A DNA stretch of 64,000 nt from Escherichia coli. GTDB lineage: Bacteria > Pseudomonadota > Gammaproteobacteria > Enterobacterales > Enterobacteriaceae. The stretch lies in the NCBI RefSeq assembly GCF_030013595.1, contig NZ_CP122768.1. The stretch is one strand, 5' to 3'. This document shows positions 24,001 to 27,000 of this stretch, in pieces. The first letter of the stretch is position 1. Each line of letters begins with the position of its first letter. The position numbers were made by a program.

Positions 24001-27000
24001 CATTCGCGAAACCAGTGCTGCTGATGTGCCGCTGGCGATTGACCATTTTCGCTATTTTGCCTCGTGTATTCGGGCGCAGGAAGGCGGTATTAGTGAAGTG
24101 GATAGCGAAACTGTGGCTTATCACTTCCACGAACCGTTAGGCGTGGTGGGGCAGATTATTCCGTGGAACTTCCCGCTGCTGATGGCGAGCTGGAAAATGG
24201 CTCCCGCGCTGGCGGCGGGCAACTGTGTGGTGCTGAAACCCGCACGTCTTACCCCGCTTTCTGTACTGCTGCTAATGGAAATCGTCGGTGATTTACTGCC
24301 GCCGGGCGTGGTGAACGTGGTTAACGGCGCTGGTGGGGAAATTGGCGAATATCTGGCGACCTCGAAACGCATCGCCAAAGTGGCGTTTACCGGCTCAACG
24401 GAAGTGGGTCAACAAATTATGCAATACGCCACGCAAAACATTATTCCGGTGACGCTGGAGCTGGGCGGCAAATCGCCAAATATCTTCTTTGCTGACGTGA
24501 TGGATGAAGAAGATGCCTTTTTTGATAAAGCGCTGGAAGGCTTTGCACTGTTTGCCTTTAACCAGGGCGAAGTTTGCACCTGTCCAAGCCGTGCTTTAGT
24601 GCAGGAGTCTATCTACGAACGCTTCATGGAACGCGCCATCCGCCGTGTTGAAAGTATTCGTAGCGGTAACCCGCTCGACAGCGTGACGCAAATGGGTGCG
24701 CAGGTATCTCACGGGCAACTGGAAACCATCCTCAATTACATTGATATCGGCAAAAAAGAGGGCGCAGACGTGCTCACCGGCGGGCGGCGCAAGCTGCTGG
24801 AAGGCGAACTGAAAGACGGCTACTACCTCGAACCGACTATTTTGTTTGGTCAGAACAATATGCGGGTGTTCCAGGAGGAGATATTTGGCCCGGTGCTGGC
24901 GGTGACCACCTTCAAAACGATGGAAGAAGCGCTGGAGCTGGCGAACGATACGCAATATGGCCTGGGCGCTGGCGTCTGGAGCCGCAACGGTAATCTGGCC
25001 TATAAGATGGGGCGCGGCATTCAGGCCGGGCGCGTGTGGACCAACTGTTATCACGCTTACCCGGCACATGCGGCGTTTGGTGGCTACAAACAATCAGGCA
25101 TTGGCCGCGAAACCCACAAAATGATGCTTGAGCATTACCAGCAAACCAAGTGCCTGCTGGTGAGCTACTCGGATAAACCGTTGGGGCTGTTCTGATGTGA
25201 AAGGCAGGCAACGTTAATAGTTGTCTGCCTTTGTTTTAGTTGTATAAAGCGGCAGTCGCTTTTAACTCATCGCTGAAAGAATAAATATCATCGAGAGATT
25301 CAATAGGATGGCGGGTTTCGTTTTTCTCTAAGTCAAATAAACCAATATATTTTTGATTTCGATTGAAATGTAATCTACAGAGTGGCTTTCGATTATTGTC
25401 ATCTACAAGTATACCAAAATAGCTTTTTGTATCTCTGTGGACTATTCGTGGTGCATCAAGCACTACGCGAACTATAGCTTTAACAATATGAAATCCTTCA
25501 AGTTCCTCCATAGTAGTAGCAATATCGGTTTCTTCTTTATTAATACATTCTACTTCTTCATTGTGTGAATTCGAATCAATTACAGATAATGACCCACCAC
25601 CTATTGCCGATTTCAATCTTTCGTTTATTTGAGAGTTAATATATTGATTGGCAGCTTTCTTTGTTAATTTTGCAAACGTATCTTTTACCTTTTGTGTTAA
25701 CATACCTTCATAAATTCTTGCTGCAAAGAATTTTACAAAATCCTCTTCAGGATTATTCATTTGTGCATGGAGAACTTTTTAAATTAAACTAACATATTTT
25801 AATTCACCTGCAGCATTAATTATTGATTCCAAATCAAATGCTGATTTAGTAAGCTTCTTTATCTCGGGAACAACTGTTTCATCTAAGTCAAGTAGATCTA
25901 TCTCAAGAAATGGTTTTTCATCCATTTTATTAGGTGCTTCTAAATCAGTAAAAAATTTATAAACTTGTTCATTGGTTAGAATAGATATTCTTGCATTTGT
26001 TACATGAAAGTATCGAAAAAGCTGTGAAGCATGATTTATATTTAGAGGATCGCCAATTTTTTTGCATTCAATGAGAATCTGAACCTCGCTATTTTTTAAG
26101 ATTGCATAGTCAATCTTTTCACCTTTCTTCGTTCCAATATCGCATACAAACTCTGGGATAACTTCGGTAGGATCAAAGACATCATAACCTAACACATTGT
26201 TAATAAACGGCATTACGAAAGCATTTTTGGTAGCTTCCTCCGTTTCAATGACTCCGGCTTGTTGTTTTATTTTTGCGGATAATGAATTCAGCTTATCTAT
26301 AAACTCCATAGACATTATAACTCCTTATATATATTTAATAAAAATGCGTTTTATAAAAATATAGAAAATATTTATATATTAACGCTTTATCATTGGTCAT
26401 AGTTAATGTATAACACACAAAAAATAATGTTTGCACATTGTAAATACAATGGTGAAACAAACTTGATATTTATCAAGAAAATAAAACAATGTCTTTTATT
26501 GGTTGTTTTAAACGTTCAATGAATACGAGTTGGAGCTATAGCAAGACTAGCTTCGATATCGCATGGATAATCTAATACAGATTTTTTAACACCTAATACT
26601 ATGAGTTATATGTAAATTGCGAGCATCCTCGCATCTTTTCAACAAGTTACTGCACACCGTTATTCTCCTTCCGAGCGGCATTCCTGAGTCAACTTTATCC
26701 CCCTGACGGCCCATATAAATCGCGCTATCGTGATTGTTATCGCTAATTGTGTGTGTATCGTGTGTATAATCATGGAAGGGCAGGGATGTGAAAAGTGCAG
26801 ACGTGATCGCCATCCTGAAGCAGCATGGCTGGGAACATATTCGAACCCGTGGCAGTCATCATCAGTTCCGCCACCCTGTTCATCCGGGTCTGGTGACGGT
26901 TCCGCACCCTAAAAAAGATATTAAGCCCGGTACGCTGGCGCAAATTGGGCGTCAGGCTGGTTTAACATTTTAAAATTTCAGGAGGCAATATGTTTTATCC

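What the first reader, a model, noticed from the sequence alone, without database searches (positions are those of the whole stretch)
26316..26787. Unusually long AT-rich non-coding region with a 7-bp-arm palindrome upstream of the nuclease-like gene
Seen in sequence: ~470 bp without a convincing ORF separate the nuclease-like gene from hicA, and contain the palindrome CATTGTA-AA-TACAATG at 26436-26451. Inference: this could hold the promoter/operator of the nuclease-like gene, a small RNA, or remnants of an integration junction.
Basis: seen in the sequence. Interest (0 to 1): 0.25.

Follow-up and report, generated by a model that had tools for sequence, protein, structure and literature searches.

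The report
Mosaic intergenic spacer beside hicAB
The 472-base gap is an ordinary two-part spacer between divergently transcribed E. coli genes, and the flagged palindrome is no more than chance would give, although a perfect FNR-type binding site lies next to it.

Summary
Window 26316-26787 (472 bp) has no credible ORF, and CATTGTA-AA-TACAATG lies at 26436-26451.

The region is a mosaic of two parts.
- **Left part (26316-~26612, 24% GC).** It occurs only in the 191 of 5426 complete E. coli genomes that also carry the nuclease-like gene.
- **Right part (26615-26787, 46% GC).** It occurs in all 505 genomes with this hicAB copy. It starts with a hairpin (26618-26633) and ends in a block upstream of hicA that is conserved across genera and contains TATAAT.

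In 314 genomes a ~95-bp REP-containing segment replaces window ~25204-26612. An insertion/deletion junction therefore lies inside the finding.

A palindrome with 7-bp arms appears in about half of shuffled sequences. It is invariant only among near-identical E. coli copies and is absent upstream of 95 orthologues. Rfam finds no RNA family.

One unreported detail is the neighbouring palindrome, CTTGATATTTATCAAG (26462-26477). It is a perfect FNR consensus, the only one in 64 kb. A TACAAT -10-like hexamer inside the flagged palindrome sits at roughly class II distance from it. This is a testable but weak hypothesis.

In this genome the nuclease-like gene carries a premature stop.

Verdict: ordinary, low interest.

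The parts
26316..26787 (.). The whole 472-bp gap between the divergently oriented nuclease-like gene (minus strand) and hicA (plus strand)
26316..26612 (-). AT-rich segment (24% GC) linked to the nuclease-like gene. By position it holds that gene's 5' leader and promoter. It is single-copy and E. coli-specific.
   Evidence: Present in only the 191 genomes that carry the gene. Lowest-GC 300 bp of the window. No similarity to the upstream regions of orthologues.
26436..26451 (.). It equals two back-to-back TACAAT (-10-like) hexamers, one on each strand.
   Evidence: Invariant in 13 E. coli copies. Absent from orthologous loci.
26437..26442 (-). TACAAT, a -10-like hexamer on the strand of the nuclease-like gene. 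It starts 27.5 bp downstream of the centre of the FNR-type box.
   Evidence: geometry. Its function is inferred.
26462..26477 (.). Second palindrome, CTTGATA-TT-TATCAAG. Its core, 26463-26476, is a perfect FNR consensus (TTGAT-N4-ATCAA).
   Evidence: Only perfect match in 64 kb (expected 0.06). Consensus as given in PMC3688515. Not present in non-E. coli loci.
26480..26500 (.). Third inverted repeat, AATAAAA-N7-TTTTATT, of low complexity
26612..26615 (.). Breakpoint of the presence/absence polymorphism. To its left, 314 genomes have a ~95-bp REP-containing segment directly after aldB instead of window ~25204-26612.
26618..26640 (+). Hairpin TGCGAG-CATC-CTCGCA followed by TCTTTTC. It resembles an intrinsic terminator and is the first element of the hicAB-linked segment.
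   Evidence: terminator scan. (-7.8 kcal/mol, z = -2.78). Stem invariant in the gene-carrying copies. A look-alike hairpin occurs at the same place in Lelliottia/Enterobacter, but the alignment is not significant.
26722..26787 (+). Block upstream of hicA conserved across genera, with TATAAT at 26765-26770 and a tandem GTGTGTAT repeat. It is the probable hicAB core promoter and HicB operator.
   Evidence: blastn against L010/L011, E = 4e-8 and 8e-7. Alignment. The promoter/operator function is inferred.
25236..26315 (-). Nuclease-like gene (HSDR_N / PD-(D/E)XK N-terminal domain). In this window it is broken by an in-frame TAA at 25779-25781.
26788..27400 (+). hicA (26788-26973) and hicB (26990-27400). 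HicB is closest to the solved ribbon-helix-helix HicB proteins of the PDB.
25200..25232 (.). 13-bp-stem hairpin between the convergent aldB and nuclease-like genes. It lies in the left end of the gene-linked segment.

Best explanation
The 472 bp are an ordinary intergenic region between two divergently oriented transcription units. The region is long because it was assembled from two unrelated pieces.

**Left piece (26316-~26612).** This is the private, very AT-rich upstream region of a GC-poor nuclease-like gene that sits next to aldB. By inference it carries that gene's promoter and a long leader, and it is probably bound by H-NS.

**Right piece (26615-26787).** This is the 5' part of the hicAB toxin-antitoxin unit. 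A terminator-like hairpin would insulate hicAB from upstream transcription. About 65 bp immediately before hicA are conserved and carry a TATAAT -10. By analogy with other ribbon-helix-helix HicB proteins, this block also holds the site where HicB represses its own operon.

**Junction.** The boundary between the pieces (26612-26615) is one end of a presence/absence polymorphism in the E. coli population.

**Palindrome.** The flagged palindrome has no demonstrable function of its own. It is what AT-rich sequence yields by chance, and it reads as two back-to-back -10-like hexamers.

Shown by the evidence: the two-part structure, the breakpoint, the conservation pattern, and the chance level of the palindrome. 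Inferred: promoter positions, H-NS binding, HicB binding, and terminator activity.
For: - **Population structure.** 505 of 5426 complete E. coli genomes match the region. Only 191 cover all of it. The other 314 match only query positions 300-472, which is window 26615-26787.
- **Empty-site genomes.** In these, aldB is followed after 277 bp by hicA, and a ~95-bp REP-containing segment stands in place of window ~25204-26612.
- **Linkage of the left piece.** It occurs only with the nuclease-like gene, once per genome, always at this locus, and never on plasmids.
- **Composition.** 24% GC on the left against 46% on the right.
- **Conservation near hicA.** About 65 bp are conserved in Enterobacter and Lelliottia, where hicAB lies on the other side of the nuclease-like gene.
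- **HicB relatives.** HicB is closest to the solved HicB proteins of PDB entries 6G1N and 4P78. Ribbon-helix-helix HicB proteins bind their own promoter (PMC6327479).
- **Palindrome statistics.**
- **No conservation upstream of orthologues.** No palindrome, no FNR box and no sequence similarity.
- **No RNA or protein family.** No Rfam family and no Pfam family for any small ORF.
Against: - No transcription data exist for this locus, because K-12 lacks it. Promoter, terminator, H-NS and HicB roles are therefore all inferred.
- Consensus scans find no strong sigma-70 promoter for the nuclease-like gene, so its real promoter is unknown.
- Three short palindromes within 65 bp is mildly more than expected (p about 0.09). 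One of them is a perfect FNR consensus, which a pure-chance reading does not explain well.
- The plus strand of 26316-26660 folds somewhat better than shuffles (z = -2.67).
Confidence: 0.7

Rival explanations
1. The left piece contains an FNR-activated, class II type promoter for the nuclease-like gene. FNR would bind TTGATATTTATCAA (26463-26476) under anaerobiosis and recruit RNA polymerase to the TACAAT -10 (26442-26437, minus strand) that forms one arm of the reader's palindrome. Transcription would start near 26428-26430, giving a leader of about 113-115 nt.
For: - The match to the FNR consensus is perfect. It is the only one in 64 kb, where 0.06 is expected, and 0.002 is expected in the 299-bp segment.
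- A 5-of-6 -10 hexamer lies on the correct strand 27.5 bp from the box centre. That places the centre at -39.5 to -41.5, depending on the start site.
- No -35 element is present, as is usual for class II promoters.
- The site is invariant in all 13 E. coli copies examined.
Against: - The motif was recognised after the fact, among many possible transcription-factor motifs.
- The spacing is about 2 bp shorter than the canonical arrangement (centre to -12 = 29.5 bp).
- The box is absent upstream of all 95 orthologues from other genera.
- The E. coli copies are 97.5-100% identical, so their invariance carries no weight: 11 variable sites in 297 bp would miss the 32 bp of palindromes about 30% of the time.
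- In K-12, 124 of 187 high-quality predicted FNR sites are not bound in vivo, mostly because H-NS, IHF or Fis cover them (PMC3688515). This site lies in the most AT-rich DNA of the window.
Confidence: 0.17
2. The palindrome CATTGTA-AA-TACAATG is the operator of a dedicated dimeric repressor or activator that controls the nuclease-like gene or the divergent pair.
For: - The 16-bp symmetry is perfect, and a second 16-bp palindrome lies 26 bp away, centre to centre.
- It overlaps candidate -35/-10 elements on the gene's strand.
- A half-site-like CCATTGTAT occurs upstream of the Enterobacter and Lelliottia orthologues.
Against: - Its frequency is at chance level.
- Neither its position nor its sequence is conserved in orthologous upstream regions.
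- The only DNA-binding protein recognised next door is HicB, whose conserved upstream block is 300 bp away. The nuclease-like protein matches only HSDR_N domains, and its C-terminal domain has no confident match.
Confidence: 0.06
3. The left piece encodes a small product. One candidate is a plus-strand RNA running from the promoter-like TTGATA-16-AACAAT (26463-26490) to the hairpin at 26618-26640. The other is the 38-aa ORF at 26406-26522.
For: - A promoter-like site (9 of 12 matches) and a terminator-like hairpin lie on the same strand about 140 nt apart.
- By my own codon-by-codon reading of the variable sites, 3 of the 4 substitutions inside the 38-aa ORF among E. coli haplotypes are synonymous third-position changes.
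- The 345-nt plus strand folds with z = -2.67.
Against: - There is no Rfam match.
- The 146-nt candidate folds no better than shuffles (z = -0.74).
- Promoter-like and terminator-like sites are no more frequent here than in shuffles.
- The ORF has no Shine-Dalgarno sequence, no Pfam match and no homologue outside E. coli, and it is annotated in only two records.
- Four substitutions are too few to test (p about 0.05).
Confidence: 0.05

Closest known systems
Promoter/operator regions of hicAB operons with a ribbon-helix-helix HicB (PDB 6G1N/6G26 HicB and 4P78/4P7D HicB3; Sinorhizobium meliloti HicAB, PMC6327479)
   Same: - The gene order is hicA then hicB.
- HicB matches the solved proteins along its whole length (E = 3e-25 and 2e-21).
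- A conserved non-coding block with a -10 hexamer lies directly upstream of hicA.
- In these systems the C-terminal domain of HicB binds the operon's own promoter.
   Different: - No operator has been mapped here. The conserved block shows a tandem GTGTGTAT repeat rather than an obvious palindrome.
Class II FNR-dependent promoters of E. coli (FNR box TTGAT-N4-ATCAA centred near -41.5; PMC3688515)
   Same: Perfect consensus box, no -35 element, and a -10-like hexamer downstream on the gene's strand.
   Different: - The spacing is about 2 bp short.
- No start site or FNR dependence is known.
- The box is not conserved in orthologues.
- It is embedded in DNA of the kind where predicted FNR sites are usually silent.
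AT-rich, horizontally acquired islets silenced by H-NS in enterobacteria (established knowledge, not tested here)
   Same: - The lowest-GC DNA in the window (24-30% GC) covers the gene and its upstream region.
- The gene is GC-poorer than its host flank in most of the genomes examined.
- One 8-of-10 match to the H-NS nucleation motif TCGATAAATT lies at 26467-26476.
   Different: - No mobility genes, att sites or flanking repeats are present.
- The gene lies next to aldB in several genera at about the same divergence as aldB. It is therefore an old resident, not a recent island.
REP-associated indel polymorphisms in E. coli intergenic regions
   Same: - The alternative allele carries a REP-type sequence after aldB.
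- Another REP-like element follows hicB.
- The breakpoint abuts a hairpin.
   Different: The mechanism of the replacement is unknown, and no repeat is shared by the two ends.

Membership tests
Rfam RNA families (small RNA, riboswitch, leader) | Match to a covariance model at or near the gathering score | tested here: not met
   no hit inside 26316-26787 even at E = 10. The three hits nearby are far below their gathering scores.
Class II FNR-dependent promoter | FNR box TTGAT-N4-ATCAA | tested here: met
   a perfect match at 26463-26476, the only one in 64 kb.
Class II FNR-dependent promoter | Box centred near -41.5 relative to a transcription start, with a -10 element and no need for a -35 | tested here: inconclusive
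   TACAAT starts 27.5 bp from the box centre, against 29.5 bp in the canonical layout. No start site is known.
Class II FNR-dependent promoter | FNR binding and FNR- or oxygen-dependent expression | not testable with these tools
   K-12 lacks the locus. PMC3688515 shows that most predicted sites in NAP-covered DNA are silent.
Transcription-factor operator (the palindrome at 26436-26451) | Conservation of the site upstream of orthologous genes | tested here: not met
   absent from the 79 upstream regions scanned for palindromes and from the 15 enterobacterial upstream regions compared directly. The local alignment z-score is at most 2.5.
Transcription-factor operator (the palindrome at 26436-26451) | Symmetry beyond what the base composition gives | tested here: not met
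   46-50% of shuffles and 36% of real 472-bp windows contain such a palindrome.
Genomic-island integration junction | Sharp presence/absence breakpoint with a compositional shift | tested here: met
   the breakpoint is at 26612-26615, with 24% GC on one side and 46% on the other.
Genomic-island integration junction | Flanking direct repeats or att site, integrase, or a tRNA target | tested here: not met
   no repeat joins ~25204 and ~26612. No integrase is annotated. No tRNA match appeared in the Rfam scan.
hicAB autoregulated promoter | Conserved non-coding block with a -10 element immediately upstream of hicA | tested here: met
   window 26722-26787 is conserved in Enterobacter and Lelliottia, with TATAAT at 26765-26770.
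hicAB autoregulated promoter | HicB binding to that block | not testable with these tools
   Inferred from relatives only.
Intrinsic terminator (26618-26640, plus strand) | GC-rich stem-loop followed by a T run | tested here: inconclusive
   a 6-bp stem with 4 GC pairs, -7.8 kcal/mol, and the tail TCTTTTC. The number of such sites in the scanned 2.6 kb (3) equals that in shuffles (3.0).

The most novel reading that the evidence does not exclude
The perfect FNR box and the TACAAT arm of the palindrome form a working anaerobic promoter. A widely conserved, uncharacterised PD-(D/E)XK nuclease-like gene would then be switched on by FNR in the gut in one E. coli lineage. It would be insulated by a hairpin from a divergent hicAB unit that has been placed on different sides of the same gene in different genera.
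Probability: 0.12. Interest if true: 0.35.

Novelty: new member of a known kind. Interest (0 to 1): 0.12.

Why it matters
It matters little. The result removes a false lead: the palindrome is not a conserved operator, and no structured RNA is present. It also explains the unusual length of the gap as the sum of two unrelated pieces joined at an indel breakpoint.

The only forward-looking value is modest.
- The locus offers a clean natural presence/absence polymorphism next to a chromosomal hicAB.
- The FNR-type site gives a cheap, testable idea about when an uncharacterised and very widely conserved nuclease-like gene is expressed.

Tried and rejected
- **Rfam scan at E = 10.** Nothing in the region.
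- **Promoter and terminator scans.** No site stands out from shuffles, and there is no strong promoter on the strand of the nuclease-like gene.
- **Repeat search for island ends.** No flanking direct repeats. An 8-mer inverted repeat (TATAACTC) at the two ends of the AT-rich piece is within chance expectation (about 5 such pairs expected, my own estimate from the base composition).
- **Similarity of the AT-rich piece to other DNA.** There is none in plasmids and none elsewhere in E. coli genomes. It also shows no similarity to the upstream regions of 15 enterobacterial orthologues, by blastn with word size 7, by Smith-Waterman against shuffles, or by 12-mer footprinting.
- **Metagenome scan for both palindromes together.** It returned only five E. 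coli copies of the same locus at 97-98.6% identity, so no divergent relatives were available for a conservation test.
- **More haplotypes.** These showed the same few SNPs. Within-species conservation is uninformative.
- **Homology of the junction hairpin with Enterobacter/Lelliottia.** The best local alignments hit a hairpin at the same place, but z is about 0.6. This was rejected as evidence.
- **Small ORFs.** No Pfam match. The 75-aa ORF is an annotation relic.
- **H-NS motif search.** One 8-of-10 match only.
- **Fold search with the predicted structure of the nuclease-like protein.** It recovers only restriction-endonuclease-like (PD-(D/E)XK) folds, including the HsdR nuclease domain. The C-terminal domain has no confident match, so it gives no clue to regulation.

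Full report
**Where the window comes from**

The window is an E. coli chromosome. The gene order is selB, yiaY, aldB, a 'type I restriction endonuclease' (minus strand), hicA, hicB, a GH127 glycoside hydrolase (minus), an MFS transporter (minus) and an AraC regulator. This is the annotation of RefSeq records that match the region at 100% identity.

**The observation**

The nuclease-like ORF begins at 26315 on the minus strand. hicA begins with GTG at 26788. The gap 26316-26787 is therefore 472 bp. CATTGTA-AA-TACAATG is at 26436-26451, exactly as reported.

The gap holds ORFs of 37, 38, 41, 60 and 75 aa, and none matches a Pfam family. The 75-aa minus-strand ORF (26586-26813) has been deposited as an E. 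coli-only 'hypothetical protein' of variable length. No such feature appears in the RefSeq tables, and the locus tags skip one number at that point. So 'no convincing ORF' stands.

**The region is a mosaic**

Of 5426 complete E. coli genomes, 505 match the region. Only 191 match all of it. The other 314 match only query positions 300-472, which is window 26615-26787. In those 314 genomes aldB is followed directly by hicA.

Alignment of the occupied and empty alleles shows what differs. Window ~25204-26612 holds the nuclease-like gene, its 3' hairpin and 297 bp upstream of it. In the empty allele this is replaced by a ~95-bp segment containing a REP-type sequence. The first part of that segment follows aldB in many further E. 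coli genomes.

The left piece has 24% GC and is the lowest-GC 300 bp in the 64 kb. The right piece has 46% GC. The left piece is single-copy, is always at this locus and is never on plasmids. In three ETEC genomes an IS1-bounded deletion removed yiaY, aldB and the gene but left the AT-rich piece.

**Is it an insertion?**

No flanking repeats or mobility genes are present. In Escherichia sp. ESNIH1, Buttiauxella and a related MAG, aldB and the nuclease-like gene align with the window as one continuous block at about 76% identity. Citrobacter, Superficieibacter and several metagenomic enterobacteria also have the gene next to aldB.

The gene is therefore an old neighbour of aldB. The E. coli polymorphism is more simply read as loss or replacement than as recent gain. 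The neighbour on the upstream side of the gene varies between genomes: GH127, yiaW, an aldolase of the sgb cluster, a LysR regulator, or a ferredoxin. That side is therefore a rearrangement-prone spot.

In Enterobacter chuandaensis and Lelliottia, hicAB lies on the other side of the gene, convergent with it. In E. coli it is divergent.

**The right piece belongs to hicAB**

About 65 bp before hicA (26722-26787) are conserved in Enterobacter and Lelliottia despite the different position of the operon (blastn E = 4e-8 and 8e-7; alignment). The block contains TATAAT at 26765-26770 and a tandem GTGTGTAT repeat.

The encoded HicB matches the solved HicB proteins of PDB entries 6G1N and 4P78 over its full length. 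Ribbon-helix-helix HicB proteins bind their own promoters through the C-terminal domain (PMC6327479). I infer that this block is the hicAB promoter and operator.

The piece begins with the hairpin TGCGAG-CATC-CTCGCA plus TCTTTTC (26618-26640). The breakpoint lies immediately next to it. A similar hairpin sits at the equivalent place in Lelliottia, but the alignment is not significant. A cluster of SNPs at 26635-26667 forms two haplotypes that are shared between genomes with and without the gene. This suggests recombination across this boundary.

**The palindrome**

At least one palindrome with 7-bp arms and a spacer of 10 or less occurs in 46-50% of dinucleotide-preserving shuffles. It also occurs in 36% of real 472-bp windows of this sequence.

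The palindrome is invariant in 13 E. coli copies. Those copies are 97.5-100% identical overall, with 11 variable sites in 297 bp, so this says nothing. A metagenome scan for the two palindromes together found only further E. coli copies.

Comparison with orthologues shows no conservation:
- None of the 79 upstream regions scanned carries the palindrome.
- 12-mer footprinting recovers only A/T runs.
- Local alignment with 14 enterobacterial upstream regions is at shuffle level.

Rfam finds nothing. The candidate plus-strand RNA between a weak promoter-like site and the hairpin folds no better than shuffles.

Two more palindromes follow within 65 bp. The second, CTTGATATTTATCAAG (26462-26477), contains a perfect FNR consensus, TTGAT-N4-ATCAA. 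It is the only perfect match in the window, against 0.06 expected, and it is absent from all non-E. coli loci.

On the strand of the nuclease-like gene, the arm of the flagged palindrome reads TACAAT. That hexamer starts 27.5 bp from the centre of the box, which is close to, but 2 bp short of, the class II arrangement. No -35 element is present. This gives a concrete hypothesis: an FNR-activated promoter starting near 26428-30.

I rate this hypothesis at about 0.17, for four reasons.
- The motif was recognised after the fact.
- It is not conserved in orthologues.
- The spacing is off by about 2 bp.
- In K-12, two thirds of high-quality predicted FNR sites are unbound in vivo, mostly under H-NS, IHF or Fis (PMC3688515), and this site lies in the most AT-rich DNA of the window.

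**State of the gene in this genome**

Compared with the closest RefSeq genome, the window differs at 25781. This change turns codon 179 (AAA) into TAA. The gene is therefore a pseudogene here, and any regulatory site for it is probably without consequence in this strain.

**Verdict**

The region is an ordinary composite spacer. Interest is low.

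Noticed in passing
window 25779-25781 (minus strand): The nuclease-like gene carries an in-frame TAA (Lys179 to stop). The same gene is intact (WP_000061477.1) in the otherwise nearly identical strain HCP5S3_I2. In this window it is a pseudogene split into 178-aa and 174-aa ORFs.
   Followed up: yes
window 25236-26315; loci L008-L102: The nuclease-like protein is very widely conserved: 58-85% identity from Enterobacteriaceae through Pseudomonas, Vibrio and Caulobacterales to Actinobacteria, with 5901 database proteins at E <= 1e-100. It appears as a solitary gene in the loci whose neighbours were inspected, and it is GC-poorer than its host flank in most of them. The predicted structure (pLDDT 80) has an N-terminal fold like the HsdR nuclease domain, a long helical linker, and a C-terminal alpha/beta domain with no confident PDB match. 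There is no NCBIfam match, and the only PADLOC hit is a weak one to type IIG enzymes.
   Followed up: partly
L010 4081-4688, L011; window 26788-27400: hicAB lies on opposite sides of the nuclease-like gene in different genera. It is divergent from the gene in E. coli. In Enterobacter chuandaensis and Lelliottia it is convergent, with only 3 bp between the two stop codons. In Escherichia sp. ESNIH1, Buttiauxella and Citrobacter it is absent. This points either to repeated placement of the hicAB unit next to the same gene or to local shuffling.
   Followed up: partly
L019, L027-L034, L039, L040, L044, L045, L057, L061 (about -57 to -49 from the start codon): In the Pseudomonas fluorescens/syringae group, orthologues have a conserved palindrome GGCA(A/G)TCAAnTTGCC embedded in a conserved upstream block. 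Many other taxa share TTGCCA-17-TAGGAT, which looks like an ordinary sigma-70 promoter. Neither element is present in E. coli.
   Followed up: no
L094 2350-3000, L095 2322-3000: In Citrobacter the gap upstream of the orthologue is even longer (650-680 bp, 31-36% GC) and has no called gene. A long AT-rich upstream gap therefore recurs in the family, although the sequences are unrelated to the E. coli one.
   Followed up: partly
L097 2367-2681, L099 4200-4514, L100 2419-2733, L101 4197-4508, L102 4255-4566: A 103-104-aa ORF without any Pfam family lies beside the nuclease-like gene in several enterobacterial loci, sometimes upstream and sometimes downstream. The L097 copy is hydrophobic and looks like a membrane protein. 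It is absent from E. coli.
   Followed up: no
window 26635-26667: Eight of the variable sites of the region cluster just 3' of the junction hairpin. They form two haplotypes (…TCTTTTCAACAAG… and …TATTTTCTACCAA…) that occur in genomes both with and without the nuclease-like gene. This suggests recombination across the boundary.
   Followed up: partly
L006 (E. coli ETEC4075) 3288-4027; window ~26289: In three porcine ETEC genomes an IS1 copy directly follows selB. The genes yiaY, aldB and nearly all of the nuclease-like gene are missing. The AT-rich piece and hicAB remain.
   Followed up: partly
window 27448-27474 (minus strand): A REP-type hairpin (TGATGCGACGCTTAACGCGTCTTATCA) lies between hicB and the GH127 gene. 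It gives a partial, sub-threshold hit to Rfam naRNA4.
   Followed up: no
window 26406-26522 (plus strand): A 38-aa ORF spans both palindromes. By my own codon-by-codon reading of the variable sites, three of the four substitutions seen in it among E. coli haplotypes are synonymous third-position changes (26489, 26513, 26516), and one is not (26458). That is too few to test. The ORF has no ribosome-binding site and no homologues, and it is annotated in only two records.
   Followed up: partly
window 25200-25232: A 13-bp-stem hairpin sits in the 40 bp between the convergent aldB and nuclease-like genes. It probably terminates both. It belongs to the gene-linked segment, so aldB has a different 3' end (REP-containing) in genomes without the gene.
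   Followed up: partly
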